A stretch of DNA of 30,322 bases from an uncultured Acidobacteriota bacterium (GTDB taxonomy: Bacteria > Acidobacteriota > Polarisedimenticolia > J045), in assembly GCA_964432135.1 (NCBI GenBank), contig CAYSMT010000001.1:7548-37869 (forward strand), given 5' to 3'. Each line of letters starts with the position of its first letter. Within the stretch, counting starts at the first letter, position 1. Below the pieces are notes generated by a model that did no database searches, was not told the DNA's origin, and saw only the letters and a list, made by a program, of their open reading frames with translations. Below, piece by piece: positions 8,977 to 23,224 of this stretch. The translations under genes and the position numbers were made by a program.

Positions 8977-9066
8977 CACGTGCGTCTCTCTTCCTGGCCG
9001 GTGGCCATCCGTCATCCTAACCGAGAACTCCGCAGAGTGTGACGCGAGGGGACAAGGAACACGCCC

Positions 9067-9939
9067 TCACATGCGGCCGTTGAACACCGGAAGGGTGCGA
9101 CCGTCAGACCGATCGGCCAGCTGACCCAGCACAAAGTGCAGGCTGCGCTTGCTGGAAGGGCAGCCTTCCACACAAGCACCGCAGTTCGTGCAGCCTTGAT
9201 AGCCCGTCATGTGGCGCGGATCGAGCTGCCAGCTACAGACCTGGACGCAATTCGCTCCCAACAGCTCTGGCTGGCAGGTCGGCTGACGCCAACTGACCCG
9301 CAAGGTCCACGGGATCCGCAGGAGCACGAGGGTCGAACCCACCGGGCAGAGTGTTCGGCACCAAAAGCGCCGTGGCAGAACGAGCTCAAAGAGCAAAAAG
9401 GCAGCAAGCAAGAGCAGGCTCCCTCCACTGACACCACCAAGGAAGATCAGCTCCAGTGGAAGGGCGCTGATCAGCCGCGGGGCTGAAAGGGTGGCGACGA
9501 GAGGAGTTGAGAGCAGTCCAGAAAGCAACATAACCGCCGCGAGCACGGACCATCTTAGGAAAGAAAGGCGCCCCTGGCGCCGCCCTGAGCGCCGGCGACC
9601 ACGGCCCCGCAGCTTATCGATCAATTCTGAGAGAAGACCCCAAGGACAAACCCAACTGCAGAAGACGGGCCCGAGGACGAGCGCGAGCGCAAAAGGAAGC
9701 AACATGCCGAGGAGCAGCGTACGCGACGCGCTCTGGGAAGCGAGGATCGTCGAGAGACCTGTCGCGGGATCAACGAGGTCGATCGGACCCATCTTGAGGC
9801 TCGCCAGCGTACCGAGCACGCTTTCCTGTCCCCATCGATAGCTCAGGGGCAGCAAGAGGAAAAAGAGCACAAACGCGATCTGACTCGTACGCCGCCAACG
9901 TGTCCAACGGATCTGCCAGGTCCTAGCTCCGAAGGACAC
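9067..9939 (-). CDS. napH: NapH/MauN-family membrane ferredoxin (quinol dehydrogenase subunit)
   Basis: GTG 9939 follows GGAGG and overlaps the napG stop. Several TM helices, two CxxxCP motifs (FCSWVCPWG, WCRTLCPVG) and C-terminal 4Fe-4S motifs (CTNCGACVEGCP). Confidence 0.88.
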   Translation of the reverse strand: MSFGARTWQIRWTRWRRTSQIAFVLFFLLLPLSYRWGQESVLGTLASLKMGPIDLVDPATGLSTILASQSASRTLLLGMLLPFALALVLGPVFCSWVCPWGLLSELIDKLRGRGRRRSGRRQGRLSFLRWSVLAAVMLLSGLLSTPLVATLSAPRLISALPLELIFLGGVSGGSLLLLAAFLLFELVLPRRFWCRTLCPVGSTLVLLRIPWTLRVSWRQPTCQPELLGANCVQVCSWQLDPRHMTGYQGCTNCGACVEGCPSSKRSLHFVLGQLADRSDGRTLPVFNGRM

Positions 9940-10417
9940 GGATCGCCTCCGGCTCAGCCGGGCAAACCTTGACGCAGATCCCACATCCAACGCAGTACTT
10001 CGGGTCTACTCGTGGCTGAAGTAAAAGGTCCTGAATCAGCGCCGTTCCTTGGAAGGGGCAGGCATCGACGCAAGTGCGACAAAGAATCCCGCGAAACGCA
10101 AAGCAGCTCTGCTCATCAACGACCGCCTCGCCCATGTCGACCTTATCTTTGGCCACCGGCTCGAGGGCACCGCTCGGACAAAGCTCTGGGCAGATCATGC
10201 ACAAGTAACAGGGCACATCCCGCGGCTCGAGCACCGGTGTTCCGACAGCAAGGCCATACTTCCAGCTTGCCGACTTGATTGACTGGTAGGGACAGGAGCC
10301 TGTGCAACGCTGACACTTAATGCACAGCTCGAGAAACTCAGCCTCCGGACGCGCTCCCGGAGGGCGCAGCTCCTGACTGAAGAAGGTAGAGAAGAAGGAT
10401 CGACGCGTCGTACCCAT
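9923..10417 (-). CDS. napG: NapG/MauM-family 4x[4Fe-4S] ferredoxin
   Basis: LRPPGA motif followed by CIKCQRCTGSCP, CYLCMICPELCP, C...LCRTCVDACP and CVGCGICVKVCP. Adjacent to napH and napD. Confidence 0.88.
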   Translation of the reverse strand: MGTTRRSFFSTFFSQELRPPGARPEAEFLELCIKCQRCTGSCPYQSIKSASWKYGLAVGTPVLEPRDVPCYLCMICPELCPSGALEPVAKDKVDMGEAVVDEQSCFAFRGILCRTCVDACPFQGTALIQDLLLQPRVDPKYCVGCGICVKVCPAEPEAIRVLRS

Positions 10418-10589: not shown

Positions 10590-10883
10590 CTAGCCGGCGT
10601 CCTCCGCGGCCCGACGGGCGAGACCACCGACCTCCTCCCAAGGAGCCTCGTCAGCGCGTCCCACGAAGGTCGGAAAAACACCGACCAGCTCTTCATCCTC
10701 TTGGATGAGTTGTTCGACGCTCTCGAGCAGCAGCTTACCGCTTGCCGTTGACCACACACCGGCGAGACGGCGATCGCCATCACCACCGACGAGCTCAAGA
10801 CCGTCGATCTTCGCCAAACGAGCAGCGGCTCGGGGTGCCCGCCCCGGGAGAGTCTCAATAACGACCCCGGCAACGACAGGCAC
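10590..10883 (-). CDS. napD: NapD chaperone
   Basis: GTG 10883 follows AGAGGA (MPVVAGVVIETLPG...). About 97 aa with a ferredoxin-like beta-alpha-beta pattern, directly downstream of napA. Confidence 0.8.
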   Translation of the reverse strand: MPVVAGVVIETLPGRAPRAAARLAKIDGLELVGGDGDRRLAGVWSTASGKLLLESVEQLIQEDEELVGVFPTFVGRADEAPWEEVGGLARRAAEDAG

Positions 10884-10942
10884 CCCTTCCTCTGGGAAGG
10901 TTCCGGGCCAGATCCCTGACCCGGAACACTCGACTTCGTTCT

Positions 10943-13201
10943 TCACACCTTCTCCAACTTCACGGCGCAGATCTTGAACTCCGGTTGCTTCGATCCGGGA
11001 TCGTAGGCGTCGATAGTAATCAAGTTACACATCCGCTGGGGATCATGCATGTTGACGAATACTGTCCCTTGTGGGCTGGTATCAGTCACGTTAACGCGGA
11101 AAACCTCGCTGCCACGACGCGAGCTCACACGCAAAGCACCTCCTGCCTTCACACCGAGCTTCGAGGCATCTGCGGGATGAATCTCAATCCGCGCCTCGGC
11201 ATTGGCGTGTGCGAGCTCCTTGCACTTCTGCGTCATCGTACCGGTGTGCCATTGCTCGATCACACGACCGGTCGTGAAGTAGTAGGGATACTCTGCATCC
11301 GGCACCTCAGCCGGATCAGCCATCGGACGAAGCCACACAACAGCCTTCTTGTTCGGCTTGCCATAGAACATCATCCGATGTGGCCAATCCTTCGGAACGA
11401 GGGGGTCAGCACCCTTGACATAGCGTCGCTTCGTTCCAGGATGCCCTTCTTCTGGGCAGGGCCAAAGCACGCCGTGATCCTTGTGCAGGCGGTCGCGTGT
11501 GATGCCCCAGAAAGCGTAGGGCGTATCCTTGGCGATCTGTCGAATCTCGTCCCAGGCGTCGGCCGGAGTCTTGAAGGGGAGGATCTTCTCGAAGCCAGCA
11601 CGGCGGCCAATATCACAGAGAATCTGGAAATCTGTGCGTGCTTCACCGGGGGGCTCGACAGCCTTGGCATCAAGCTGATAACGCCGCTCGGAACAACCGT
11701 AGACACCTTCCTTCTCTGACCACGCCGCTGCGGGAAGCACAACATCCGCAAGCTCCGTGGTACGGGTCGGATAAATATCAGAGACGACAACAAAGGTATC
11801 TTTGCTCTGCATGCCCTTGCGATAGCGGGTCACGTTGGGCAACGATTGTCCTGGGTTCGTGCACATGATGTAGATGCACTTGATCGTGCCTTCGTCCAGG
11901 CCGCGGAACATGTCGACGGCGTTCTTGCCCTTTGTCGATGGCAAGGTCCCGGGCTCGAGGCCCCAGAGTTTCTCCATCGTCGCACGATGAGCCGGCTTAC
12001 CGGACAGCCGTCCATAGGGCAGGAGATGAGACAAACCGCCTTGGTCGCGAACACCGCCGCAGGCATTCGGCTGGCCCGTCAACGAGAAGGTCGTGTTGCC
12101 CGGCGTACCGATCTTCCCTGTGATCAGGTGTAGATTGTGAACTAAGTTATTTGCCCACACTCCGCGGCTGCGCTGATTGAGACCCATACACCACATCGAC
12201 ATCGTCGCCTTGCCTTTGGCACCAAACAGCCGCGCCGCTGCGACGATCTGCTCCTTCGGGCAGCCGGTGATCTTGGCGGCCTTCTCGGGAGAGTAGGCTT
12301 CGAGGAACTTGAGGTAGTCAGCCCAATTTTTGTCGACGGTCTTGACTTGACCGAAGGCGAGCTGACTCTTGATGAACTCGTGATCGATCAGGTTTTCTTT
12401 GATCAGGATATGGGCAAAGGCGTTGAGGATCGCCAGATCGGTTCCTGGCTTGAACTGCAAATGCATGTCCGCGATGCGTGAGGTCGGTGTGCGCCGCGGA
12501 TCGATAACAACGACTTTGACGCCTTTGTCAGCCTGTTTGCGCCGCGCGATACGCTGGAAGAGGATCGGATGCGCCTCGGCGGTGTTCGAGCCCACCAGAA
12601 AGAAGGTGTCGGCGTAATCGATGTCTTCATAACAGCCCATCGGCTCATCTTTGCCGAAGGTCGTTACATAACCACCAACGGCAGAAGCCATACAAAGACG
12701 TGGATTACCTTCAATATTGTTGGTCCGAAAACCCGCGCGGAAGAGCTTGTTCGCGGCGTAGGACTCCTCGGTATAAGCCTGCCCCGAACCGTAGAAGGCC
12801 ACCGAGTCCGGCCCGTGCTTCTTGGCTGAGTCTTTGAATCTCTTGACAATCAGCTTTAATGCCTCGTCCCAAGTCGCCTCTTTGAGCTCGCCCTTCTTGT
12901 TGCGGATCAGCGGCTTGGTGAGACGAGACTCATCGTAGAGGATTTGCGGTAGCAGGAATCCCTTTAAGCAGAGGAATCCATTGTTGTGGTTGTCTTTGTC
13001 ACCCTTGACGGCGATGAGGCGACCGTTCTTGGTGCCCTTGTAAAGACCGCAACCGGTGCCACAGTAGCGGCACACGCCCTTGGTCCACTTCACACTTCCG
13101 TCCGCTACGCTCTGTGCGAGGGTCTCGGTCGGCTTGCCGAGTGCAGCGATAGCCGATGCTGCGGCAGTGGTGAAGAGGAAGTTCCTTCGAGTAACCTTCA
13201 T
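10943..13201 (-). CDS. napA: Periplasmic nitrate reductase catalytic subunit NapA (short, Desulfovibrio-like type)
   Basis: TAT motif TRRNFL, [4Fe-4S] motif CRYCGTGC, Mo-ligand region EGNPRLCMASAVGGYVTTFGKDEPMG, GQPNACGG and C-terminal QPEFKICAV. AAGGAGG RBS before ATG 13201. Confidence 0.96.
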   Translation of the reverse strand: MKVTRRNFLFTTAAASAIAALGKPTETLAQSVADGSVKWTKGVCRYCGTGCGLYKGTKNGRLIAVKGDKDNHNNGFLCLKGFLLPQILYDESRLTKPLIRNKKGELKEATWDEALKLIVKRFKDSAKKHGPDSVAFYGSGQAYTEESYAANKLFRAGFRTNNIEGNPRLCMASAVGGYVTTFGKDEPMGCYEDIDYADTFFLVGSNTAEAHPILFQRIARRKQADKGVKVVVIDPRRTPTSRIADMHLQFKPGTDLAILNAFAHILIKENLIDHEFIKSQLAFGQVKTVDKNWADYLKFLEAYSPEKAAKITGCPKEQIVAAARLFGAKGKATMSMWCMGLNQRSRGVWANNLVHNLHLITGKIGTPGNTTFSLTGQPNACGGVRDQGGLSHLLPYGRLSGKPAHRATMEKLWGLEPGTLPSTKGKNAVDMFRGLDEGTIKCIYIMCTNPGQSLPNVTRYRKGMQSKDTFVVVSDIYPTRTTELADVVLPAAAWSEKEGVYGCSERRYQLDAKAVEPPGEARTDFQILCDIGRRAGFEKILPFKTPADAWDEIRQIAKDTPYAFWGITRDRLHKDHGVLWPCPEEGHPGTKRRYVKGADPLVPKDWPHRMMFYGKPNKKAVVWLRPMADPAEVPDAEYPYYFTTGRVIEQWHTGTMTQKCKELAHANAEARIEIHPADASKLGVKAGGALRVSSRRGSEVFRVNVTDTSPQGTVFVNMHDPQRMCNLITIDAYDPGSKQPEFKICAVKLEKV

Positions 13202-13213
13202 CACTTCCTCCTT

Positions 13214-13588
13214 TCACATCCCATGAGGGGTGAGTGCGTGGGCAGGATGGCAAGTGAAGCAGGTCTTGCCTTTCATCGCGCTTCCGCTCATCGACGCGAG
13301 CTGATCTGCGTGACAGCTCACGCAACGCGCCATGCTCGGCTGAATGGCGAAATCCTCTCCCACCGAACCGTGGCAAACGACGCACTTGACGTTAAACAGG
13401 CCGTGAGAGCTTGAAAACCACTCTTTGAAGATCTCGGGCGTGCCCTTTTCGTGGCAGGCCGCACAGTCCTTCGCCCTGCCCATCCCGACTGGGTGTTCGG
13501 CTTTGGGAGCATCCGCAGCAAACGCAACTCCCAACGCCAGGACACCTGCCAGCAGCACGACTCCCATGGCCAGTCGGTGCAGCTTCAT
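13214..13588 (-). CDS. napM: Small periplasmic tetraheme cytochrome c (NapM-like)
   Basis: GGAGG RBS, signal peptide and four CxxCH motifs (CAACH, CVVCH, CVSCH, CFTCH). Immediately upstream of napA, as in Desulfovibrio napCMADGH. Confidence 0.82.
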   Translation of the reverse strand: MKLHRLAMGVVLLAGVLALGVAFAADAPKAEHPVGMGRAKDCAACHEKGTPEIFKEWFSSSHGLFNVKCVVCHGSVGEDFAIQPSMARCVSCHADQLASMSGSAMKGKTCFTCHPAHALTPHGM

Positions 13589-13679
13589 GTCGTTCCTCCC
13601 TTCGTTGATGCGCAGTGGCACCCCGCCTTCCAGCGTTGGGCGTTCCGCTTGGGAAGCCGGGGTGCGGTTTCGCCCATGC

Positions 13680-15206
13680 TCAGCCGCCGACTTTCACGCC
13701 GCCGAAGCTGTACTTGATGGTCGTACGCAGCTCGTAGGCTGCCTCATCCCACTTGTCGGTACCGTTAACCAGATAGAGCGCGCCATCCCCCGGGCTAAAG
13801 TAACCGGTACGGAAGATCCACAGAAGACCCGGATAGACCTTCCAGTGCAGGCGCATGTCGACCTCCCAGCCGAGATCATCAGAGGTAGAGACCGCGTCGA
13901 GATCGCCAGCTTCGAGCCCGTAGGATCCGCCCGCCTCAGCCCAAGCAAAAATCGGCTCCGTCGCCTGCATCCAGGTTCCGGAAACAAAGTAAGTCAGCTG
14001 CGGGTTGATCTTCCAGGTGTAGTTAGCTTGCACGAGAGTCGTGTTCTCGAACTCTCGGTAGCCACGGGAGGCCGGTGAGCCGAGACCCTGGGGAGTGATT
14101 CCCTCTTCGTCGGGCATCACGGAGTCTTCCCATACCTCGGTCACATAGAAGAAGCCGTTGGTGCGGATGCGGTTGATGTTGCCGTCGCCGCGCAGCGGGT
14201 CGTCGTCACCCGAGCCCATGCCGAAGAGCATGCCGAACTTGCCGGGGCCAGCGGGCACCTTGGCATCAAAATAGAAGTTATAGCCAGAGAGGTCACCGTC
14301 ATTGACGTCAATGATCTGCTTGAGATCGGAGGAGGAGTTCGCGATATCGTCGTCGCCGCCAAGGAAGTCCGCCTCTCCCTTGAGCTCCCACTTCCCGACC
14401 TTGCCATTGAAGGCGAAGCCGAGAGCGTAGGCCTTGGAGACCTGCGGCGTGAAGCGCGCGCGGAAGTATTGCAGACCGTTGGGGATGTAGGAGCGACGCG
14501 AAGCCTTACCCCCATCCACGTAGTAGGCGAGGAAGGGGTTGACGGTCCAGTTTTTCCCCTTGTGAACGTAGTCGAGGGTGTAAAGGGTCGCATCCTCTGT
14601 GGAGAATCCCATGGGGCCGATGGCGCTTTCATCGGAGAGCGAGTCGGCACCTTCGGACATCTTCGCCCAGCCAAAGCTGAAGCGGCCATCGTCCAGGAGC
14701 TTGGTCGCGATGACGCCGTCGTTGTCTTGGTCGAGAACGAGCATGTTACCGAGCTTGTTCTTCATGCGACCAATCTTGAAGTTCCAACCCCAATCGGGAT
14801 GCGTGAAGTCTACATAGGCCCAGTCGATGTGGGTCACGAAGTTCGTGTCCTTGCGGCCGAACAAGGAGGAGAAACCACCCTCGGAGGGGTTGCGGCGGAA
14901 GTTGTCGATGCCCCAGATCGACTGGGCCACATCGCCGCGCACGACCATCTTAATGTTTTCACCGACGCCGAATTGCGCTGTCAAGCGCACCATCTGGATC
15001 GCGTATTCATCTTTGTCCGAAACACCCCCAACAAAAGGAGCGTCCGCACTCTTACCGAAGAAGAAGTTATTCTGGCTGTATCCATTCATGGCATAAAAAC
15101 CAGACAACTTGAACCAAGGCTTGGCTTTACCATCGTCGCCGGCGAAGCTCGGCATGACCATCGCAGCGAGCACACAGACCACGATGGCAAGTTTGATCTT
15201 GCTCAT
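13680..15206 (-). CDS. Outer-membrane beta-barrel protein (porin / alginate-export-like)
   Basis: ATG 15206 follows AAGGGG. Signal peptide ending ...MPSFA. Rich in Gly, aromatic residues and Asp with alternating beta-strand patterns, no Cys in the mature part, and terminal strand YELRTTIKYSF followed by a short tail. Confidence 0.75.
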   Translation of the reverse strand: MSKIKLAIVVCVLAAMVMPSFAGDDGKAKPWFKLSGFYAMNGYSQNNFFFGKSADAPFVGGVSDKDEYAIQMVRLTAQFGVGENIKMVVRGDVAQSIWGIDNFRRNPSEGGFSSLFGRKDTNFVTHIDWAYVDFTHPDWGWNFKIGRMKNKLGNMLVLDQDNDGVIATKLLDDGRFSFGWAKMSEGADSLSDESAIGPMGFSTEDATLYTLDYVHKGKNWTVNPFLAYYVDGGKASRRSYIPNGLQYFRARFTPQVSKAYALGFAFNGKVGKWELKGEADFLGGDDDIANSSSDLKQIIDVNDGDLSGYNFYFDAKVPAGPGKFGMLFGMGSGDDDPLRGDGNINRIRTNGFFYVTEVWEDSVMPDEEGITPQGLGSPASRGYREFENTTLVQANYTWKINPQLTYFVSGTWMQATEPIFAWAEAGGSYGLEAGDLDAVSTSDDLGWEVDMRLHWKVYPGLLWIFRTGYFSPGDGALYLVNGTDKWDEAAYELRTTIKYSFGGVKVGG

Positions 15207-15310
15207 TGGCGTCCCCTTATTGCCCCCTGCGAATCCCGCCGGGGCGGATACGAGTTGAACGAGCCGGCCGCGCGTTTCCGTAGGCCGGCCCGATCGTCTG
15301 ACGGCTATGG

Positions 15311-16666
15311 CTAGTGGATCTCCTGGTTGTAGCGCTTTTTGTAGAACTCGAGATTGGCCTTGCGCTGTTCCTCGGTCATGCCCTTGAGCCACTGGTGTTC
15401 TTTCATCTGCTTGGCTTTGCGGGTCACCCCGGGCTTGAGCTTCTCGGCCATCGGAAGGAACTTCATATAGAAGTGTTGCGCCACCTCGTAGAACCCGTGC
15501 CACTGGGTGTAGTCCGGCCCCATCATTGACGCACCCATGCGCGCCCGGCGCCCCTCGTGATGCCACAACTCGAAGTACACCCACTCAATAGGCTCATCAA
15601 AGGGCGTCGCAGTGAGTTTTCCGGACTTCTTGAGGTCGTCCATGATGTCGCGGGCAGGAATACCGAACTTGCGGTTGTAATGATCGACTGCGGCGTCATA
15701 CATCGTGTAGAAATTGTCGACCCAGGTCGTTCCGTGACACTCGAGACAGACCTTCTTCATTTTTCCCCTGCGCTCGGCGGAGTTCTCGAGATCTTTCGAA
15801 ACCGGCGGTCGGTTCGTGCGGGAGATGCGGGCTCCGATATCGTGAGTGACCTCCATCGTCGGCGTCGCGGAGACATGACAGGTCGCGCAGGTCGGTGCTG
15901 CGATATAGTCCTCGCCGACGACCCATTTGGTCCGGTCCATGTTCATCTCGTCACGGTGAGAGACGAAGTTGATGCCGTGCTTGGACTCTTCAAAAATCTC
16001 GATCTGCGGGTGATCCGGGCCCATGTGGCACCGACCGCAAGTGTGCGGCTCGCGCACCTGCTCGAGCGCGAAGCTGTGCCGGAGGTGGCAGGCGGTGCAG
16101 GTACCGTTTGATCCATCCGGGTTGATTCTGCCGATACCGGTATTCGGCCAAGTTCCAGCGACGGGCCGGCCGTCCTTGTCGATCTCGACGATCGAGCCAT
16201 GGCACTGGCGACAGCCGAGGTTGGCGGCCGGCGTACCCTCAATGACCTCGCCAAGCAAGTTGTCCATTGAACCGATGAACTGTGCGGCGTTCGCGTGATG
16301 TGATGGGGTGAACTCCTCAAACTGCTTCTGGTGGCATTCCTTACAATCCTGCGGCGACGGGACCTGGCTGACATTGTAGCCCTCGTGCTTCCACAGATCG
16401 GGATCGCCTTCCTTGGCCTCGTGGCAGGACTGGCAGCCGATGCCCTTCTCCGCGTGACGTGAAAGCTCCCACTGGCGACTCCAGGTCACGGCGATGTGCT
16501 TCTCGTCGTGACAGTCGATGCAAGCCTTGGTTGTGGCATCTGCGTAGGCGCGCGCCGCGTTCTCGGGCTTGTGCCGACTCTTTTCAATGAAACCCACGGT
16601 GATGACGGCGGCCAGGAAGGCCAGGGCGAAGATGGCGACGATGAATTTCTTGAACTGGAGGCTCAT
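15311..16666 (-). CDS. Membrane-anchored octaheme cytochrome c of the hydroxylamine oxidoreductase family (epsilon-Hao/reductive-type)
   Basis: GAGGGAGG RBS before ATG 16666 and an N-terminal hydrophobic helix. Eight CxxCH motifs (CIDCH, CQSCH, CKECH, CRQCH, CTACH, CGRCH, CATCH, CLECH). HAO-type CHMGPDHPQ...SKHG and C-terminal GPDYTQWHG. Confidence 0.88.
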   Translation of the reverse strand: MSLQFKKFIVAIFALAFLAAVITVGFIEKSRHKPENAARAYADATTKACIDCHDEKHIAVTWSRQWELSRHAEKGIGCQSCHEAKEGDPDLWKHEGYNVSQVPSPQDCKECHQKQFEEFTPSHHANAAQFIGSMDNLLGEVIEGTPAANLGCRQCHGSIVEIDKDGRPVAGTWPNTGIGRINPDGSNGTCTACHLRHSFALEQVREPHTCGRCHMGPDHPQIEIFEESKHGINFVSHRDEMNMDRTKWVVGEDYIAAPTCATCHVSATPTMEVTHDIGARISRTNRPPVSKDLENSAERRGKMKKVCLECHGTTWVDNFYTMYDAAVDHYNRKFGIPARDIMDDLKKSGKLTATPFDEPIEWVYFELWHHEGRRARMGASMMGPDYTQWHGFYEVAQHFYMKFLPMAEKLKPGVTRKAKQMKEHQWLKGMTEEQRKANLEFYKKRYNQEIH

Positions 16667-16742
16667 GACCCCTCCCTCAGCGTAAGAGCGTGATCGAAGT
16701 GTAAAAGTGCTTGGCAACAATGCGACGACCTGCCACGACCCG

Positions 16743-17855
16743 TCATGACAGCGCCTCCCAGACGAAGAAGACAAGGACGACAACAATGGCGAGGCTGCCG
16801 ATGACGGTGCCGAGTTCGCTCTTCGGATTGCGACGCCGGAAGAGCGCGTCGATGAAGGGCCAGAAGACGAAGGCGGCGCCCGCAGCCATCATTCCGGAGA
16901 TCCCAGCCCACAGAGGCACGAGCTTGAGCCACCGGAACATGGGATAGAAGTACCACTCCGGCTTGATATGCAGCGGCGTTTCGTCAGGGTTGGCCGGCAC
17001 GCCCAGGTGCGCCGGGAAGGCGATGGCGAGCACGGCCAGAACCGAAAGCAGGACGAAGCCGACCATCAGCTCGGTGGTGATATGGTCAGGGAAGAAGGCA
17101 AAGTAGCGGTTCGGGTCGAAGCGCTTCTTGCCCTCGCGGTCTTCCTCCACGGTCAGCGGCGTCTGCTGCACCTCCTCGGGAGCATCGAGTTCCATCACGC
17201 CGTGGATCCGTAGCAGAAAGACATGCGCGCCAATGAGAAGCAAGATCAGTGAGGGCATCGCTCCGATGTGGAAGACGAAGAAGCGTGTCAGGGTCGTCGG
17301 GCCAACCTCCTGGCCGCCTCGCATCAGCTTAAGAATCCACTCACCGATGAGCGGCGTCTGGGCCGCAACATTGGTCCCGACGGTCGCCGCCCAGAACGAG
17401 AGCTGATCGTTGATCAGGGCATAGCCCGTGAAGCCGAATCCAAGGGTGACCATCAGCAGGCCCGTGCCGACCATCCAGTTCAGCTCACGCGGCTTGCGGT
17501 ATGCACCGGTAAAGAAAACGCGCATCACATGGAGAACCACAGCGACGACCATCAGGTTGGCCGCCCAGTGATGCACCGAACGAACGAACCAGCCGAAGGG
17601 TACCTGCGTGTTGATGTAGTTGACCGTCTCCCAGGCGCCCTGAGGTGACGGACGGTAGTAGAAAGTCAGCAGGATCCCAGTAACCGCCTGGATGAGCAGC
17701 AGCATCAGCGGCGTACCGCCGAGCGCGTACCACCAGTTCTTCATGTGGTTTGGAATGGGCTCCTTGGAGAGCTCCTCGAACACCTCGATATCGACGGGAA
17801 CTCGGCTTCTTACGAAGCGGAGCCAGGAGGGAATGGTGTGACCGGTCTCCGACAT
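16743..17855 (-). CDS. Cytochrome b of a Rieske/cytb complex (fused cyt b + subunit IV, ~7 TM)
   Basis: Heme-ligand His pairs (VRSVHHW...VLH and FVFH...GAH), WAATVGTN, Qo motif HIKPEWYF and an RKPRELNWMVG motif. GGGAGG RBS before ATG 17855. Confidence 0.93.
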   Translation of the reverse strand: MSETGHTIPSWLRFVRSRVPVDIEVFEELSKEPIPNHMKNWWYALGGTPLMLLLIQAVTGILLTFYYRPSPQGAWETVNYINTQVPFGWFVRSVHHWAANLMVVAVVLHVMRVFFTGAYRKPRELNWMVGTGLLMVTLGFGFTGYALINDQLSFWAATVGTNVAAQTPLIGEWILKLMRGGQEVGPTTLTRFFVFHIGAMPSLILLLIGAHVFLLRIHGVMELDAPEEVQQTPLTVEEDREGKKRFDPNRYFAFFPDHITTELMVGFVLLSVLAVLAIAFPAHLGVPANPDETPLHIKPEWYFYPMFRWLKLVPLWAGISGMMAAGAAFVFWPFIDALFRRRNPKSELGTVIGSLAIVVVLVFFVWEALS

Positions 17856-17857
17856 GC

Positions 17858-18310
17858 TCAGGCCTCCCTGTCTGGCACGGTGGCCCACATGTGGTCGCCT
17901 TCGAGCCGCACCTCATAGCTTGGCAGCGGCTCCGGTGGCGGGCCGGCGATGACCTGCCCCTCGGTGTTGAAACGACCCATGTGGCAGGGGCACAGGAAGT
18001 TGCCGTTGACTTGATCCCACTCGACCCGGCACCCGAGATGTGTGCAGGTCGAGGAAAAGACCCGGACTTGCTCCTCGGAGAGCCGGATGACGATCAGGTC
18101 ATTGCCCAATACATTCTTCACGAAACGACTTGCGGCAATGGGTAGCTCGGAGAGCTTGCCGAGCAACACCTCACGAAATGGCTCGGTGCCTCCAGGCACG
18201 ACGTACGACGAGACCTGCCTCGCGAGAATCCCCAGGCCGGGAATCACAGTCACAGCCAGGGCGAGATTGGCGAGGAAATCCCGTCGATCTTTCGACTTGG
18301 GTTCTGGCAT
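17858..18310 (-). CDS. Rieske [2Fe-2S] subunit
   Basis: TAT motif DRRDFL, box I CTHLGC, box II CPCHMGRF and GPPPEPL. Confidence 0.93.
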   Translation of the reverse strand: MPEPKSKDRRDFLANLALAVTVIPGLGILARQVSSYVVPGGTEPFREVLLGKLSELPIAASRFVKNVLGNDLIVIRLSEEQVRVFSSTCTHLGCRVEWDQVNGNFLCPCHMGRFNTEGQVIAGPPPEPLPSYEVRLEGDHMWATVPDREA

Positions 18311-18342
18311 ACACGCACCTCTCTCTCAGTGGCCGCAACAAT

Positions 18343-18359
18343 ATGCAAGTGCTATTCCG
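18343..18359 (-). promoter_or_regulatory. Candidate sigma-54 (-24/-12) promoter of the Rieske-cytb-HAO-nap operon
   Basis: Minus strand reads CGGAATAGCACTTGCAT (GG-N10-GC, TTGCAT at -12). It would put transcription start about 23 nt before the Rieske ATG. A sigma-54 activator gene is adjacent. Confidence 0.55.
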
Positions 18360-18471
18360 GAAGGAGTGTGCCAGTTTGAAACACAAGACAACACTAGGCT
18401 TAGCTTGCAGAGCGACCAAGGGTCTTATCTAAACCAGCAAGCGAATGCCGATTTCATGGTGGGAAGACGAT

Positions 18472-18501
18472 CCAAAGAGGGCTTCACCCTGATTTCTTTG
18501 G
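18472..18501. promoter_or_regulatory. Inverted repeat CCAAAGA-N16-TCTTTGG, candidate enhancer-binding site or terminator of the regulator gene
   Basis: The dyad lies about 110-140 bp upstream of the putative sigma-54 site, a typical distance for an upstream activator sequence. Confidence 0.3.
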
Positions 18502-18534
18502 GTTTACGGTCGGCACTCGGATGCCGATCGCCCG

Positions 18535-19908
18535 TCAGCGGGATGAGTCGGTCATAGGTTCCGCTCGCGAGCGTCCGATCCCATGCTTGTGCATCAGGTT
18601 ATAGAGCTGGCGCGAGGAGATGCCGCTGCGGCGGGAGACCTCGCTCAGTTTGCCGCCACAAGCCGCCAGCGCCTGACGCAGGTAGGCTGCCTCAAACGCG
18701 TCGATGATGCGCTGTTTTTCCGCCTGGAAGTTGGGCAGTGGAGCCTCCTGTTCCGGTTCGTCGACGAGACGCAAAATCCCATCGCGACAGAAGACGACCA
18801 AACGCTCCAGTGCGTTCTCTAGCTCACGTACGTTACCGGGCCAGTCTCGTCTCTCGATCCAGGCAAAAACCCGTGGATCAATCTCGCGGATCGTCCGATT
18901 GTGGCGCTCCGCGTGACGCGGAAGCAGGTGCTCGAGCAGAGCCCTGAGGTCTCCGCGCCGTTCACGCAGAGGCGGCAAGTGAATCGGCACGACGTTGAGA
19001 CGATAGTAGAGATCTTCACGGAACTCCCCGCGCTCGACGTCGAGCTTCAGGTCGTGATGAGTAGCCGCAATGAAACGCACATCGACGGCGCGGGGTTCAT
19101 CGCTTCCAAGGGGGGTCACCCTCCCCTCCTCCAGAAAACGCAGCAACTTCGGCTGAATCTGAAGTGGAAGATCGCCGATCTCATCGAGCAGCAAGGTGCC
19201 GCGATCAGCGCTGACGAGCTTGCCGTCGCGATCACGCTCTGCGCCTGTGTAGGCACCGCGAACATGACCAAAGAGCTCGGCCTCGATCAACGTTTCCGGG
19301 ATCGCGGAGCAGTTGACAGCAACAAAGCGCTCCTTCGCCCGAGGGGAAGCCCTGTGTATCGCCCTGGCGACGAGTTCCTTGCCGGTCCCCGTCTCGCCGA
19401 GCAACAAGATCGTGACGGGCGTCTCGGCCACATCAGCGATCGTTTCACGCACAGCCTGCATCGCTTCCGAATCGCCGACGAGCTCGGTGGCCGCAGCTTC
19501 GAGACAGTGGCGCCGCATCTCTCTCTGGAAATTCGAGGCGTCCAGAGCCAGGGCGAGAGTGCGGAGAAGCTCGCCCTCGTCCAAGGGACGTGCCAAGTAG
19601 GTCGTCGCACCCAGACGCATGGCCTCGACCGCCCGGCGTTCGTCACTGTGAGTCGCGACCAGCACCACGGGAAGGTCCGGGACGCGCCGCTTGGCATAGC
19701 GCAGAAGGTCGAGCCCGCTCAGGGCACCTCGCAGATCCTGCTCGGTGATCAGGAGGTCGGGCCTGGATTCGGCAATCGAGGACAAAGCCGCTGGAGCATC
19801 GAAGAAACAGTGAACGTCGTATCCGGCGCGGGCGAGCATGGCAGCAACCTGCCGGCCCGCACTCGGGTCCGGGTCAACGATCAGGATCTGACGCTGTCGC
19901 TCGCTCAT
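18535..19908 (-). CDS. Sigma-54-dependent enhancer-binding protein (NtrC-like architecture) with atypical receiver domain
   Basis: Walker A GETGTGKE, GAYTGA loop, Walker B LLLDEIG, FREDLYYRL and a C-terminal HTH. The N-terminal domain has a REC fold but degenerate active-site residues. Confidence 0.92.
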   Translation of the reverse strand: MSERQRQILIVDPDPSAGRQVAAMLARAGYDVHCFFDAPAALSSIAESRPDLLITEQDLRGALSGLDLLRYAKRRVPDLPVVLVATHSDERRAVEAMRLGATTYLARPLDEGELLRTLALALDASNFQREMRRHCLEAAATELVGDSEAMQAVRETIADVAETPVTILLLGETGTGKELVARAIHRASPRAKERFVAVNCSAIPETLIEAELFGHVRGAYTGAERDRDGKLVSADRGTLLLDEIGDLPLQIQPKLLRFLEEGRVTPLGSDEPRAVDVRFIAATHHDLKLDVERGEFREDLYYRLNVVPIHLPPLRERRGDLRALLEHLLPRHAERHNRTIREIDPRVFAWIERRDWPGNVRELENALERLVVFCRDGILRLVDEPEQEAPLPNFQAEKQRIIDAFEAAYLRQALAACGGKLSEVSRRSGISSRQLYNLMHKHGIGRSRAEPMTDSSR

Positions 19909-19956
19909 GGGGCCGTCGAGTCCTATGGAAGTTGGGCGCTCGCGTAGTATACGGGG

Positions 19957-21168
19957 ATGAGAGAGCAGCAAGGTTATCGAGTTCGGAAGAAGGCCATGCG
20001 CTTATCGCACGCCGATGTCAACGACGCCGAAACCACAGCATGCATGCTGCGCTGGTATGAGGCGTTCAGGCGCCCCCTTCCCTTCCGTTCGAACCGAGCC
20101 CCATATGCGATCTGGATCGCCGAGATCATGGCGCAGCAGACGACGATGCGTGCTGTCGTGCCCTATTGGCAGCGCTTCCTCGCCACCTTTCCTGATATTG
20201 AATCTCTCGCGCGAGCAGATATCGACCAAGTCCTCGCGCTGTGGTCAGGTCTCGGCTACTACCGCCGAGCTCGCCAACTACACCGGGCCGCACAAACGAT
20301 CGTCAACGAGCTGGCAGGGCGCTTTCCAGAAACTCTCGAACAGCTCCGAACCCTTCCAGGTGTGGGACCCTACACGGCGGCCGCGATCGCTTCGATCTGT
20401 TTCGGCCTTCCCACGCCGGTCGTCGACGGCAACGTCATCCGTGTACTCACTCGTTTTGCCGGGATCGAAGGGGATCCGAAGCGCGTGCGCGTTCGGCGCC
20501 AGATCGAGGAACGCGCACGTGACCTGATCGACCCCACGAGGCCCGGCGAGTTCAACCAAGCGCTGATGGAACTCGGCGCTCTCGTCTGCCGGCGGCACAA
20601 TCCCCGTTGCGACGCGTGCCCGCTGGCGGGGGGCTGCCGGGCTTTGGCGATGGGCGATCCGGTACGCTTTCCACAAACAGTGCCCTCGCGCCCGAGCGTG
20701 GCCCTGGTCACGGGCTACGCGCTCATTGTCGACACAAACGGGGCCGTACTCCTACACCGTATCCCGCCGGGTGAGTTCAACGCGGGTTTGTGGGAGCTTC
20801 CGGGGGCCGTGCTCATCCGAAAACAATCCGCGGACAACGACAAACGCCGAGAATCGTTTTCCGGGCGAGATATTTCCCCCTCCCTTGCGCATGCGCTCGA
20901 AAAAGCCCTCGCCACCTCGTTGGAGATCGAGGCGCGTGTTGGCCCGCTGCTGCTGCGTGCACGCCACACCATCACCCATCATCGAATCCTTGGCCTGATA
21001 TGCGAGGCCGTACTGACCTCTTCTCTTCACCCGTCGAGCGCCTTGGAATACTTCAAGCTTGAATCACTCGAAGCCATTGCATTGACGAGCCTCACCCGAC
21101 GAGCCCTGCGCGAATGGACTCGTAGGAGAAGTCAGGAGGCTTCTGCGACCATGCGAACACGGCCATGA
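19957..21168 (+). CDS. mutY: A/G-specific adenine DNA glycosylase
   Basis: EIMAQQT, WSGLGYYRRA, HhH LPGVGPYTAAA, VVDGNVIRV, FNQALMELGA, [4Fe-4S] motif CRRHNPRCDACPLAGGC and a NUDIX-like C-terminus. Start uncertain. Confidence 0.93.
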   Translation: MREQQGYRVRKKAMRLSHADVNDAETTACMLRWYEAFRRPLPFRSNRAPYAIWIAEIMAQQTTMRAVVPYWQRFLATFPDIESLARADIDQVLALWSGLGYYRRARQLHRAAQTIVNELAGRFPETLEQLRTLPGVGPYTAAAIASICFGLPTPVVDGNVIRVLTRFAGIEGDPKRVRVRRQIEERARDLIDPTRPGEFNQALMELGALVCRRHNPRCDACPLAGGCRALAMGDPVRFPQTVPSRPSVALVTGYALIVDTNGAVLLHRIPPGEFNAGLWELPGAVLIRKQSADNDKRRESFSGRDISPSLAHALEKALATSLEIEARVGPLLLRARHTITHHRILGLICEAVLTSSLHPSSALEYFKLESLEAIALTSLTRRALREWTRRRSQEASATMRTRP

Positions 21169-21488
21169 AAGGTAGCCCCGGGATCAACGACGAGAGTGGG
21201 GGCGTGGAGGATCATCTCGCCGCTGAAGACGGCTCCGGGGAGAAGGTGGACTTCGCGAACAACCTCGACACGACCCTCGACGCGTCCATAAACCGTCAAC
21301 ACCTGCACGGAGAGTTTGCCCGAGATGCGAGCTCTCTCACCGACGATCAGGGTGTCACCGGCGACGCTGCCTCCCGTGAGCTGGCCATCGACGCGCAAGC
21401 AACCTTCGAAGCGAATCGAGCCGCCTTCGACGCGCATCTCCTCGCCCATCCAGGCGGTGATCTCTTCTTTCTGTTGACTGCGCCGCAT
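21132..21488 (-). CDS. Bactofilin (polymer-forming cytoskeletal protein)
   Basis: Beta-helix repeats (LRVDGQLTG, LIVGERARISG, VYGRVEGRV, VFSGEM, GATFHGRVRM). The start overlaps the parB stop, and the 3' end overlaps convergent mutY by 37 bp. Confidence 0.88.
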   Translation of the reverse strand: MRRSQQKEEITAWMGEEMRVEGGSIRFEGCLRVDGQLTGGSVAGDTLIVGERARISGKLSVQVLTVYGRVEGRVEVVREVHLLPGAVFSGEMILHAPTLVVDPGATFHGRVRMVAEAS

Positions 21489-22408
21489 CAGCTACTCGTA
21501 CCCTCGAGGCCCAACAGCAGGCGGTAGAGCCGATCGAGATCGTCATCTCCCGCGAAGCGAATCTCGATCCAGCCGCGTTGACCACGTCGACGCTTGATGG
21601 CAACCCGTGCGCCGAGCGCCCGAGAGAGCGATTCCTCCGCAGCGAGGACATTGGGGTCCCTGCGCTTTGAGGGGGCGAAATCTACCGGAAGGACAGCGTC
21701 TGGCTCAGCGAGCCGCCGCACCTTCTCCTCCACGCGGCGAACAGACCAGGCACCCTCCACAGCCTGATTCGCGAGGCGAAGCTGCTGCTGCGCATCATCC
21801 AGACCGGCAAGGGCGCGACCGTGCCCCATATTCAGATGCCCTTCAGCGATCAGATCCTGAACCTCCTCGGGCAGGTCGAGCAGGCGCAAATAGTTCGTGA
21901 CACTGCTGCGGGGCATACCGACTCTTGAGGCGACCTCCGCCTGGGTCAATCGAAAGCGCCTCACCAGGGCGCGAAACGCCTGGGCCGTCTCTAGCGCGCC
22001 GAGGTCGTCGCGCTGAAGATTTTCGATCAACGCGAACTCGAGCATACGTTCGTCGGCGAGTTCGCGAACGATAGCGGGCACTGTTGCGAGCCCGGCGAGG
22101 CGCGCCGCACGCAGGCGCCTCTCACCAGCAATGAGAGTGTAGCCGCCGTCTTTCTCCTGACGCAGGAGGAGCGGCTGCAAGATGCCACTGGAGCGAATCG
22201 AAGCAGCGAGGGCGTCGATTTCCACCGGGTCGAAGTGCGTGCGGGGCTGGTGTGGATTGGGTTTGATCTGATCGAGGGCTATTTCTGCCGGGGTCCCCGC
22301 AGAAGGGGACCCGCCCTCTCGACCGAGCAAGGCGTCGCTATCGCTAAACTCGGGAATCAGACTGTCAAGGCCCTTGCCCAGAGCCCTACGCTTCGCTTCG
22401 CCCTTCAC
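21488..22408 (-). CDS. parB: Chromosome partitioning protein ParB/Spo0J
   Basis: [15 protein letters not shown]-terminus, PNPHQPR, CTP-binding [17 protein letters not shown] and an HTH ([23 protein letters not shown]). Likely GTG start at 22408. Confidence 0.95.
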
Positions 22409-23162
22409 GACTAAGAATCTCCTTGGCGAGATCGAGATAGGCGCTCGCCCCCTTGGAACGCGCATCGTAGAGGAATACAGGCTTTCCGAAGGAGGGCGCC
22501 TCACCGAGCCGGATGTTTCGGGGGATGACGGTCTGATAGACCGCACCTTTGAAAAACTGGCAGACCTCCTCGGCGACTTGCCGCGAAAGGTTCGTACGCT
22601 CGTCGTACATCGTCAGCAGGACACCTTCAACCTTGAGCTCTCCGTTGAGAGCCTTCTTCACGCGGCGGAGGGTTTGGATGAGCTGCGTGACGCCTTCAAG
22701 CGCGAGATACTCACACTGAATAGGAACGAGAACCGAACCCGCGGCTGTCAACGCATTGACCGTGAGAAAACCAAGGCTGGGAGGGCAGTCGACGAAGATG
22801 AAGTCGAAACCATTGCCCGCCTCGGCAAGCGCATCCGCGAGACGATACTCGCGGCGTGGCAAACCCGCGAGTTCGACCTCAGCCCCCGTAAGCTCGTTCT
22901 CCGATGGACACAGCAGCAGATTCTCGAGATCGGTCCCCAAAAAGGTCTCCCTCAGGGGCGTGCCCTCGATCAGACAATCGTAGATCGTTACCCGCTCCGG
23001 GTCCCGCTCATAGCCCAGCGCGCGCGTACTATTCGCTTGAGGATCGAGATCAATCAACAGCGTACGTCGCCCGGCGAGCGCGAGGGCCGCGCCGAGGTTG
23101 ACGGCGGTCGTGGTTTTGCCCACACCGCCCTTCTGGTTGGCGACGGCGATGACCTTCGGCAT
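22386..23162 (-). CDS. parA: Chromosome partitioning ATPase ParA/Soj
   Basis: [36 protein letters not shown] and [14 protein letters not shown]. Confidence 0.96.
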
Positions 23163-23224
23163 GGGGAAGTCCTACCGGAGTGAAAGCGCGAGATTAGCAC
23201 ATGGCGCGTCCTGCGACCCGGCTT

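What the first reader, a model, noticed from the sequence alone, without database searches (positions are those of the whole stretch)
15311..16666. Octaheme HAO homologue lacks the cross-linking Tyr (Trp instead), predicting reductive chemistry
Seen: eight CxxCH motifs, the distal-pocket motif GPDH after heme motif 6, and C-terminal MMGPDYTQWHG (about 15494-15526). Established: oxidative HAO of Nitrosomonas needs a Tyr467-heme 4 cross-link (P460). Epsilonproteobacterial Hao and the Ignicoccus octaheme lack it and act as nitrite/hydroxylamine reductases. Inference, aligned by eye to my recollection of the N. europaea segment HVNPGGWTY: M-M-G-P-D-Y-T-Q-W puts Trp at the Tyr467 position and Met at the His position. 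The N-terminal helix could be an uncleaved membrane anchor that holds the enzyme on the cytb complex.
Basis: partly seen in the sequence, partly recalled or inferred. Interest (0 to 1): 0.72.

Follow-up and report, generated by a model that had tools for sequence, protein, structure and literature searches.

The report
Tyr-less octahaem nitrite reductase on Rieske/cytb
This gene encodes a membrane-anchored eight-haem cytochrome of the hydroxylamine-oxidoreductase family that lacks the tyrosine needed for oxidative chemistry and sits in a nitrate-to-ammonium gene cluster; it is a correct call, but a common and already described kind of enzyme.

Summary
The minus-strand ORF 15311-16666 encodes a 451-aa protein with eight CxxCH motifs, the Asp-His distal motif GPDH after haem motif 6, and MMGPDYTQWHG at 15494-15526.

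It belongs to the HAO family (PF13447). Its closest solved relatives are the Tyr-less reductive enzymes IhOCC (4QO5) and Kustc0458 (6H5L).

The position of the NeHAO cross-linking Tyr467 is held by Trp389 (alignment through IhOCC and haem-loop spacing; per a secondary source, also the published epsilon-Hao convention) or by Gln388 (direct HMMER/hhalign). It is never Tyr. The only loop Tyr, Y386, is Phe in half of 120 homologues. NeHAO Tyr334 aligns with an invariant Arg.

The gene follows Rieske and cytochrome b genes and precedes a porin, a tetrahaem cytochrome and napADGH.

In 80 related loci, every Hao next to Rieske/cytb (26 plus the window) has a 20-residue uncleavable N-terminal anchor. 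The 44 unlinked ones with enough upstream sequence to judge have ordinary signal peptides.

The kind is known: epsilon-Hao, IhOCC, Caldithrix Cabys_2556-2558, the Nitrospira moscoviensis 'ONR' co-expressed with Rieske/cytb, and Kuste4574. Relatives occur in at least 596 species genomes.

Verdict: a new member of a known kind, of low interest. The chemistry is inferred, not tested.

The parts
15311..16666 (-). Octahaem HAO-family cytochrome c (epsilon-Hao/IhOCC type), 451 aa. N-terminal signal anchor at residues 8-27, eight CxxCH motifs, catalytic haem-4 motif C152RQCH, distal D218-H219 and R286, and the loop M381-G391.
16586..16645 (-). N-terminal membrane anchor FIVAIFALAFLAAVITVGFI. It is 20 uninterrupted hydrophobic residues, preceded by KK and followed by EK, with no AxA cleavage site.
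   Evidence: one search shows the same design in all 26 Rieske/cytb-linked homologues. The AF2 helix 3-31 has pLDDT 82-91.
15494..15526 (-). Loop MMGPDYTQWHG, equivalent to the NeHAO H459-G470 loop that carries the cross-linking Tyr467. M381, W389 and H390 are invariant, Q388 is present in 117 of 118, and Y386 is Y or F.
16010..16021 (-). GPDH distal-pocket motif. D218-H219 aligns with NeHAO Asp267-His268.
16743..17888 (-). Cytochrome b, a fused b6 plus subunit-IV type, 381 aa, with no CxxCH.
17858..18310 (-). Rieske [2Fe-2S] protein with an RRDFL twin-arginine signal anchor. It overlaps the cytochrome b start by 31 nt.
13680..15206 (-). Outer-membrane porin. It scores weakly against DESULF_POR1, and its orthologues hit PF13372. 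It is conserved between hao and nap in close relatives.
13214..13588 (-). Small periplasmic tetrahaem cytochrome c (4 CxxCH), in the position of NapM.
10943..13204 (-). NapA-like periplasmic molybdopterin nitrate reductase with a Tat signal. The best NCBIfam hit is NapA at 720 bits, below the 904-bit cut-off.
10590..10946 (-). NapD-like chaperone candidate.
   Evidence: An orthologous ORF hits PF03927 in L083.
9923..10417 (-). NapG-type ferredoxin.
9067..9990 (-). NapH-type membrane quinol dehydrogenase subunit.
18535..19971 (-). Sigma-54-dependent response regulator (NtrC family) directly upstream. It is conserved in this position in L082 and L083.

Best explanation
The gene encodes a periplasm-facing octahaem cytochrome c of the Tyr-less (no P460) branch of the HAO family. 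It is held in the inner membrane by an uncleaved N-terminal helix.

[quoted passage not shown] Quinol would be oxidised at cytochrome b. Electrons would pass through the Rieske cluster into the seven bis-His haems and on to the five-coordinate haem 4. There, nitrite made by the co-encoded Nap nitrate reductase would be reduced, most probably to ammonium. Hydroxylamine and NO would be alternative substrates or intermediates.

Shown here: family membership, the haem motifs, the Asp-His pocket, the absence of a Tyr at the cross-link position, the conserved operon, and the coupling between anchor and synteny.

Inferred: the direction of catalysis, the product, the physical complex and energy conservation.
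For: Family and closest structures. PF13447. The best PDB sequence and fold matches are IhOCC 4QO5 and the reductive Kustc0458 6H5L.

No cross-link Tyr. Candidate positions Q388 and W389 are near-invariant and invariant respectively (117/118 and 118/118). Y386 is replaced by Phe in about half of the relatives.

Second pocket Tyr. NeHAO Tyr334 aligns with an invariant Arg286 between the conserved W and P anchors. An Arg in the pocket is a feature of nitrite-reducing cytochromes.

Operon. The order is sigma54-RR, Rieske, cytb, Hao, porin, tetrahaem, NapA, NapD, NapG, NapH. It is conserved gene for gene in relatives of 76% and 68% identity.

Synteny across genomes. Rieske and cytb lie immediately upstream in 26 of 80 related genomes. 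No CxxCH-bearing ORF sits beside Rieske/cytb in those loci, so no c1/f subunit is encoded there.

Anchor. It is present in 27 of 27 linked genes and in 0 of 44 unlinked ones. The linked and unlinked lineages are interleaved in the tree.

Literature.
- Tyr-less HAOs reduce nitrite and do not oxidise hydroxylamine (PMC8042395).
- Caldithrix carries the same cluster (PMC5317091).
- Kuste4574 is a subunit of the R/b-3 complex (PMC12485887).
Against: No biochemical data exist for this protein or for any close relative with a Rieske/cytb partner.

The register of the loop is ambiguous by one residue.

The AF2 model, built without haems, superposes poorly on 4QO5 (TM 0.37). No structural superposition was therefore possible.

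The product could be NO, as for Kustc0458, or hydroxylamine, as in the reverse-HURM proposal, rather than ammonium.

The small tetrahaem cytochrome and NapGH offer alternative electron routes that bypass Rieske/cytb.

NapA scores below the NCBIfam cut-off.

The link between anchor and synteny could partly reflect shared descent. The NJ tree is crude and has no support values.
Confidence: 0.72

Rival explanations
1. The enzyme has the same architecture, but its physiological reaction is the one-electron reduction of nitrite to NO. This is what the anammox HAOr Kustc0458 does and what is proposed for Kuste4574. The NO would feed NO-dependent metabolism or signalling rather than ammonification.
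For: Kustc0458 is the only Tyr-less HAO whose product was measured, by MIMS, and it makes NO (PMC8042395). It is the second-best fold match. Its homologue Kuste4574 sits in a Rieske/cytb complex.
Against: The sequence is much closer to IhOCC (E 6e-63) than to Kustc0458 (2e-25). From my own knowledge, IhOCC and epsilon-Hao give ammonium. No NO reductase gene lies in the window. The cluster is paired with Nap as in the ammonifiers Caldithrix and Nautilia. The Nitrospira orthologue is the only candidate for assimilatory nitrite reduction and is not expressed when ammonia is supplied.
Confidence: 0.12
2. The enzyme makes or consumes hydroxylamine. In the reverse-HURM scheme nitrite is reduced to free hydroxylamine and a separate Hcp finishes the reduction. 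Alternatively the enzyme mainly detoxifies NH2OH and NO.
For: This was proposed for Nautilia profundicola (PMC3701875, listed). hao and hcp co-abundance was noted in mats (PMC8940962). Epsilon-Haos reduce NH2OH in vitro.
Against: No hcp gene lies in the 30-kb window. A dedicated quinol-oxidising complex and a nap operon point to a respiratory or assimilatory main pathway, not to detoxification.
Confidence: 0.08
3. It is a multihaem reductase for a substrate outside nitrogen chemistry, such as sulfite, tetrathionate, selenite or metal oxides, or it is simply an electron-transfer subunit. The HAO-like pocket would then be incidental.
For: The octahaem family is promiscuous (PMC9250108). The cytochrome b scores highest against the ExtP model of a selenite/tellurite operon, at 231 bits, though below its cut-off. 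Two thirds of the related loci lack both Rieske/cytb and Nap.
Against: The five-coordinate haem-4 pocket residues D218, H219 and R286 are invariant. In the close relatives the gene is fixed next to napADGH. ExtKL similarity is negligible (E 3e-4).
Confidence: 0.05
4. It is an oxidative HAO after all and uses Tyr386 of PDY for a non-canonical haem cross-link.
For: A Tyr is present three residues before Trp389, in a loop that AF2 could not place (pLDDT below 50 at 383-387).
Against: Y386 is Phe in 58 of 118 close homologues. With both flanking anchors it aligns with NeHAO Gly464 or Trp465, not with Tyr467. Tyr334 is also missing. There are no amo or HURM genes nearby, and the context is nitrate reduction.
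Confidence: 0.03

Closest known systems
Epsilonproteobacterial hydroxylamine oxidoreductase (epsilon-Hao; Haase et al. 2017, Mol Microbiol 105:127)
   Same: Both are octahaem HAO-family proteins with eight CxxCH motifs and no cross-linking Tyr. Both carry the signature of a conserved Met eight residues before a conserved Trp, as reported in PMC8940962. Here that is M381 and W389, invariant in 118 of 118 homologues. Both are associated with nap genes. The epsilon-Haos have in-vitro nitrite and hydroxylamine reductase activity.
   Different: From my own knowledge, the epsilon-Hao genes are paired with a NapC/NrfH-type tetrahaem quinol dehydrogenase. Here the partner is a Rieske/cytochrome b pair. 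I could not fetch a genuine Campylobacterota epsilon-Hao sequence, so orthology with them was not measured. The Haase paper itself was not readable here.
Ignicoccus hospitalis octahaem cytochrome c IhOCC (Igni_0955, PDB 4QO5)
   Same: It is the best solved-structure relative by sequence (E 4e-46 single sequence, 6e-63 profile) and by fold. It has the same Met...aromatic loop (GTAMNGQDWTTFKRGW against GASMMGPDYTQW-HGF). It has no P460.
   Different: IhOCC is 521 aa with insertions of about 100 aa, and its loop is one residue longer. It has Phe where this family has Trp. It is archaeal. Identity is only about 24%.
Nitrospira moscoviensis / N. japonica 'octahaem nitrite reductase (ONR)' with upstream Rieske/cytochrome b genes (Koch 2015; Ushiki 2018; Mundinger 2019, PMC6606698)
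   Same: It is an orthologue at 52% identity (L021). Rieske and cytb lie immediately upstream, and it has the same 20-residue N-terminal anchor. The literature proposes quinol-coupled nitrite reduction to ammonium and shows co-expression.
   Different: In Nitrospira the role is assimilatory and no nap genes follow. Here the gene is embedded in a nap operon, which suggests respiratory ammonification. The name 'ONR' is misleading, because this is not the CxxCK-type ONR of Thioalkalivibrio.
Caldithrix abyssi Cabys_2556 (epsilon-Hao) with Rieske/cytb Cabys_2558/2557 in the nap cluster (PMC5317091)
   Same: The component set is the same: NapM-like tetrahaem, NapA, NapG, NapH, Rieske, cytb and a Tyr-less Hao. 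The proposed function is the same. A Calditrichaceae relative (L049, 47% identity) shows Rieske-cytb-Hao-NapA.
   Different: The gene order differs: here Rieske-cytb-Hao precedes nap, and a porin gene is inserted. No experimental test exists in either organism.
Kuenenia stuttgartiensis HAOr Kustc0458/0457 (PDB 6H5L) and Kuste4574 of Rieske/cytb complex R/b-3
   Same: These are Tyr-less HAO homologues. Kustc0458 is experimentally reductive, converting nitrite to NO. Kuste4574 is a subunit of a Rieske/cytb complex. The loop is one residue shorter than in cross-linked HAOs, as it is here.
   Different: They belong to a different subclade, which retains His at the M381 position (AHAQQDVSWWWG). Kustc0458 is soluble, with a dihaem partner. 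Their product is NO, and their setting is the anammoxosome.
Nitrosomonas europaea HAO (1FGJ/4FAS) and Kuenenia HOX (4N4J): oxidative P460 enzymes
   Same: The fold family is the same, as are the eight haem motifs in the same order and the Asp-His distal pair.
   Different: Here the cross-linking Tyr467/Tyr415(SEQRES) and Tyr334 are absent. His459 is replaced by Met. There is no C-terminal membrane anchor; instead there is an N-terminal one. The genomic context is reductive.

Membership tests
HAO / multihaem cytochrome family (Pfam PF13447) | Significant match to the family profile, with eight CxxCH motifs in the HAO order | tested here: met
   PF13447 scores 75 bits against a 21.9-bit cut-off. 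Eight CxxCH motifs are present. Haem motifs 5-8 and the Asp-His pair align with NeHAO.
Oxidative P460-type HAO/HOX/HDH | A Tyr in the C-terminal loop (NeHAO Tyr467) that cross-links to haem 4 of the neighbouring subunit | tested here: not met
   The equivalent residue is W389 or Q388, depending on where the one-residue gap is placed. The loop Tyr386 is Y or F in equal shares. This rests on sequence only; no superposition was possible.
Oxidative P460-type HAO/HOX/HDH | The second distal-pocket tyrosine (NeHAO Tyr334) | tested here: not met
   It aligns with the invariant Arg286 between the conserved W283/W331 and P287/P335 anchors.
Oxidative P460-type HAO/HOX/HDH | A 460-475 nm absorption band, a covalent trimer and hydroxylamine or hydrazine oxidation | not testable with these tools
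   This requires purified protein.
Epsilon-Hao / IhOCC-type reductive octahaem cytochromes | An HAO fold without the Tyr, and a conserved Met eight residues before a conserved aromatic residue (Trp in epsilon-Hao, Phe in IhOCC) | tested here: met
   M381 and W389 are invariant in 118 of 118 homologues. The signature is described in PMC8940962, citing Haase 2017. IhOCC is the best PDB hit.
Epsilon-Hao / IhOCC-type reductive octahaem cytochromes | Nitrite and hydroxylamine reductase activity with negligible hydroxylamine oxidation | not testable with these tools
   Known only for four epsilon-Haos, IhOCC and Kustc0458 (and my own knowledge).
Rieske/cytochrome b-linked Hao module (Nitrospira 'ONR', Caldithrix, Kuste4574) | A hao gene directly downstream of Rieske and cytochrome b genes on the same strand, with no c1/f gene | tested here: met
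   Window gene order. 26 of 80 related loci share it. No CxxCH ORF lies next to Rieske/cytb in those loci. L082 and L083 are identical in order.
Rieske/cytochrome b-linked Hao module (Nitrospira 'ONR', Caldithrix, Kuste4574) | A physical complex of Hao with Rieske/cytb in the membrane | tested here: inconclusive
   Only indirect evidence exists: the N-terminal anchor co-occurs perfectly with the synteny (27/27 against 0/44), and co-expression is reported in Nitrospira. There are no protein data.
Octahaem nitrite reductase ONR (Thioalkalivibrio TvNiR type) and pentahaem NrfA | A catalytic haem bound by CxxCK with a Lys proximal ligand, and a His/Tyr/Arg pocket | tested here: not met
   No CxxCK motif is present. 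The PDB profile E-values are 0.02 for 3SXQ and 2.5e-4 for NrfA, against 6e-63 for IhOCC.

The most novel reading that the evidence does not exclude
The anchored octahaem is not a loose electron acceptor. It would be the integral c-type subunit, the c1/f replacement, of a dedicated Rieske/cytochrome b:Hao complex that acts as a quinol:nitrite oxidoreductase. Such a complex would make nitrite ammonification directly proton-motive through a Q cycle.

The N-terminal helix would be the docking element. It has been gained or lost together with the Rieske/cytb genes several times across phyla.

The invariant Met381, at the position of the conserved His459 of the oxidative enzymes, could give one haem His/Met ligation. 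That would raise its potential to accept electrons from the Rieske cluster.
Probability: 0.4. Interest if true: 0.55.

Novelty: new member of a known kind. Interest (0 to 1): 0.25.

Why it matters
Tyr-less HAO homologues are abundant in genomes and metagenomes and are often mis-annotated as hydroxylamine dehydrogenase, cytochrome c552 or 'ONR'. Assigning them correctly changes how nitrogen budgets are inferred, because nitrate is then retained as ammonium rather than nitrified.

This locus adds nothing new in kind. The survey made here does sharpen a testable point. A sizeable subset of these enzymes (about one third of 80 sampled genomes, from Nitrospirota, Planctomycetota, Myxococcota, Bacteroidota, Calditrichota and others) is built to sit on a Rieske/cytochrome b complex. 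That would be an energy-conserving route for nitrite reduction, distinct from NrfAH, and it has never been shown biochemically.

Tried and rejected
Structure. The AF2 model was built from a 36-sequence alignment (pLDDT 77.8). It could not be used for superposition. Foldseek TM to 4QO5 is only 0.37 with rmsd 17.8 A, as expected for a haem-free model, and the loop 383-387 has pLDDT below 50. No coordinates are available in the sandbox.

Direct alignment to oxidative HAOs. Single-sequence and profile HMMER searches against the PDB did not carry the alignment to NeHAO or KsHOX beyond query residue 352. A search with the C-terminal 106 aa alone hit only IhOCC. The register therefore had to be inferred through intermediate families (A2, A3) and loop spacing.

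Literature. Haase 2017 was not found in the searched library and Maalcke 2014 could not be retrieved; Parey 2016 was not looked up. The epsilon-Hao signature is quoted second-hand from PMC8940962, and the KsHOX Tyr451 numbering rests on my memory.

Promoters. The sigma-70 promoter and terminator scan of 13000-18700 gave nothing above chance. The sigma-54 consensus search was also not above chance (25 matches against 28 expected). The two -24/-12-like sites upstream of the Rieske gene are only noted.

Rejected readings.
- A NrfH/NapC-type partner upstream of the unlinked Hao genes: no CxxCH ORFs lie there.
- ExtKL/ExtP selenite-reduction membership: the scores are below the cut-offs.

Host organism. 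It was not identified. The only contig holding the exact protein is a 4.1-kb metagenome fragment. I ran no further search on it.
Full report
**What is there**

The finding lies on the minus strand. ORF 15311-16666 (ATG at 16666) encodes 451 aa. The longer TTG ORF reaching 16786 would overlap the 3' end of cytochrome b, and the close homologues all begin at MSLQFKK.

The translation has eight CxxCH motifs, at residues 49, 78, 108, 152, 190, 210, 260 and 307. It has no CxxCK. GPDH is residues 216-219, directly after motif 6.

Pfam places the protein in PF13447, the HAO family (E 7.8e-21). The best solved relatives by sequence are:
- IhOCC of Ignicoccus hospitalis (4QO5): E 4e-46 with the single sequence, 6e-63 with a family profile.
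- NeHAO: E 4e-31.
- The reductive Kustc0458 (6H5L): E 2e-25.
- KsHOX: E 3e-25.
- NrfA and the CxxCK-type ONR are marginal, at 2.5e-4 and 0.02.

Foldseek on an AF2 model also returns 4QO5 and 6H5L as the only significant hits. The haem-free model is too distorted (TM 0.37) for residue-level superposition.

**The cross-link position**

Chains 1FGJ_A and 4FAS_A read ...KMHVGLAH459VNPGGWTY467TEG470W..., with Tyr at index 467.

Direct HMMER alignments of the query to NeHAO stop at query residue 352. I therefore collected bona fide AOB-type HAOs (alignment A2) and an intermediate Tyr-less group with the loop HANPDYALWYGW (alignment A3), using a search seeded with the verified NeHAO fragment.

Two conserved anchors bracket the loop. 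Upstream is G..H459 (Met381 here) with P462 (P384 here). Downstream is G470-W471 (G391-F392 here).

The cross-linked enzymes have H+8=Tyr and H+11=Gly:
- NeHAO: 459, 467, 470.
- KsHOX, in SEQRES numbering: 407, 415, 418.

IhOCC has the same loop length, with M486, F494 and G497. Ungapped, Phe therefore occupies the Tyr position in IhOCC.

The query family, the A3 group and Kustc0458 all have a loop one residue shorter (+10 to Gly). The two possible registers are:
- W389. HMMER aligns the query to IhOCC with W389 opposite F494 and the gap after it. This gives W389=Tyr467 and M381=His459. [quoted passage not shown]
- Q388. Direct HMMER (P0197 against NeHAO) and hhalign (A1 against A2, A3 against A2) place the gap earlier. 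This gives Y386=Trp465 and Q388=Tyr467.

I cannot decide between the two without coordinates, and I lean towards W389.

Either way the residue is not Tyr. M381, W389 and H390 are invariant and Q388 is present in 117 of 118 of the 120 best homologues. The only loop tyrosine, Y386, is Tyr in 60 and Phe in 58. Y386 therefore cannot be a conserved cross-linker, and it is two or three positions out of register.

NeHAO Tyr334 of the distal pocket aligns with an invariant Arg286, between the conserved Trp and Pro anchors. D218-H219 matches Asp267-His268.

**Context**

All of the following lie on the minus strand, in this order:
- A sigma-54 response regulator (18535-19971).
- Rieske, with a Tat motif (17858-18310).
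- Cytochrome b of the fused b6/subunit IV type (16743-17888).
- Hao (15311-16666).
- A porin (13680-15206).
- A four-haem cytochrome (13214-13588).
- NapA (10943-13204).
- A NapD-like ORF (10590-10946).
- NapG (9923-10417).
- NapH (9067-9990).

No c1/f-type cytochrome is encoded in the cluster. The whole module is conserved gene for gene in two relatives whose Hao is 76% and 68% identical.

**Distribution and the anchor**

The family is very large. At least 7997 90%-identity clusters match. At least 596 species-level genomes carry the CH[ML]GPDHP and PD[YF]TQWHG motifs, across Acidobacteriota, Nitrospirota, Planctomycetota, Myxococcota, Bacteroidota, Calditrichota, Desulfobacterota and others.

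Of the 80 fetched loci, 26 have Rieske and cytb immediately upstream on the same strand, and about 13 of these are followed by NapA. No upstream ORF beside them carries CxxCH.

I then compared the N-termini. Every Rieske/cytb-linked Hao, and the window protein, has the same design:
- A basic residue, then 18-20 (nearly always 20) uninterrupted hydrophobic residues.
- An immediate Glu or Lys after that stretch, with no AxA site.
- A linker of about 20-21 residues to haem 1.

The 44 unlinked genes with enough upstream sequence to judge have ordinary signal peptides, with a median hydrophobic run of 16 and AxA-type ends. Three anchor-type genes sit on contigs too short to judge.

A rough NJ tree interleaves the linked, anchored lineages with at least four unlinked, signal-peptide lineages. 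The two traits therefore appear to have switched together repeatedly. The tree has no support values.

**Mechanism**

The best-supported reading is a quinol-driven periplasmic nitrite reductase. Quinol would be oxidised by cytochrome b and Rieske. Electrons would enter the anchored octahaem in place of cytochrome c1/f. Nitrite supplied by Nap would be reduced at the five-coordinate, non-P460 haem 4, most likely to ammonium.

Precedent for the direction of catalysis:
- Four epsilon-Haos reduce nitrite and NH2OH with negligible NH2OH oxidation.
- Kustc0458, which lacks the Tyr, reduces nitrite to NO and cannot oxidise NH2OH (PMC8042395).

Precedent for the coupling:
- Caldithrix abyssi has the same components, and the authors propose Rieske/cytb as the donor (PMC5317091).
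- The N. moscoviensis orthologue (L021, 52% identity, same synteny and anchor) is highly expressed together with its two upstream Rieske/cytb genes when nitrite is the sole N source. [quoted passage not shown]
- Kuste4574 is a subunit of the anammox R/b-3 complex (PMC12485887).

The rivals differ mainly in the product (NO or hydroxylamine) or the substrate. An oxidative role through Tyr386 is very unlikely.

**Comparison and verdict**

The protein passes the tests for the HAO family, the epsilon-Hao/IhOCC-type signature and the Rieske/cytb-linked module. It fails the tests for P460-type oxidative HAO, having neither Tyr467 nor Tyr334. It also fails those for CxxCK-type ONR and NrfA.

Both restate what is already published for this class, and the gene is one of thousands. 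The incremental results of this check are:
- The one-residue ambiguity of the 'Trp replaces Tyr' statement.
- The Tyr334-to-Arg substitution.
- The perfect coupling between the anchor and the Rieske/cytb synteny.

Novelty: a new member of a known kind. Interest: 0.25.

Noticed in passing
window 13680-15206 (-); L082 9456-11003; L083 9446-10957: An outer-membrane porin gene is fixed between hao and the tetrahaem/napA genes in the window and in both close relatives. It scores weakly against DESULF_POR1, and its orthologues hit PF13372 Alginate_exp. It may be a dedicated nitrate/nitrite channel. More distant loci have napA directly after hao.
   Followed up: partly
window 18345-18373 (-), 35-60 nt upstream of the Rieske ATG at 18310: There are two overlapping sigma-54-like -24/-12 elements: TGGCACactccTTCC and GG-N10-GC (ccGGaatagcacTTGCAt). 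They lie next to a sigma-54-dependent response regulator gene that is conserved at this position. L083 also has a PAS histidine kinase. The consensus count in the window is not above chance.
   Followed up: partly
window 15809-15811 (-), residue R286: An invariant Arg aligns with the distal-pocket Tyr334 of NeHAO. The pocket would then be Asp/His/Arg, reminiscent of nitrite-reducing NrfA/ONR pockets.
   Followed up: partly
window 15812-15820 (-), residues 283-285: The window protein and its 87%-identical relative P0001 read ISRTNRPP. In this alignment of 36, the others have W at 283 and L at 285 (consensus ISWTLRP). The changes W283R and L285N lie next to the putative pocket Arg.
   Followed up: no
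window 15524-15526 (-), residue M381: An invariant Met replaces a His (NeHAO His459, KsHOX His407, Kustc0458, A3 group) that is invariant in the oxidative and anammox clades. IhOCC also has Met. This could mean a change of haem axial ligation (His/Met), but the role of His459 was not checked.
   Followed up: no
P0139: This is a 434-aa HAO-like protein. Its N-terminal half resembles the short Tyr-less A3 group. Its C-terminal half is AOB-like, with HVNPGGWTYTEGF and a C-terminal membrane anchor. It may be a natural mosaic or a compact oxidative HAO.
   Followed up: no
P0194, P0197-P0199, P0204, P0213 (alignment A3): This is a coherent group of 390-430-aa HAO homologues with the loop FHANPDYALWYGW. 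The loop has two Tyr, neither at the Tyr467 register by HMMER or hhalign. Their closest PDB hit is the reductive Kustc0458. Their function is unknown.
   Followed up: partly
window 19957-27506; L082 1-4411: The nitrate/nitrite module sits beside origin-proximal housekeeping genes (mutY, parB, parA, mnmG/gidA, rsmG/gidB, mnmE). The same neighbourhood is shared with a hydrothermal-vent metagenome contig whose Hao is 76% identical.
   Followed up: partly
P0202; Nitrospira literature: There are annotation problems. An octahaem cytochrome of this superfamily is named 'beta-ketoacyl-ACP synthase' in NCBI. Family members are variously called cytochrome c552, hydroxylamine dehydrogenase or 'ONR', although they lack the CxxCK motif of true ONR.
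   Followed up: no
window 5832-9015: Several ORFs downstream of napH have no Pfam or NCBIfam match: 8044-9015 (-), 7203-7730 (-) and 5832-6986 (-). Whether they belong to the module is unknown. L082 and L083 have different genes at this position.
   Followed up: partly
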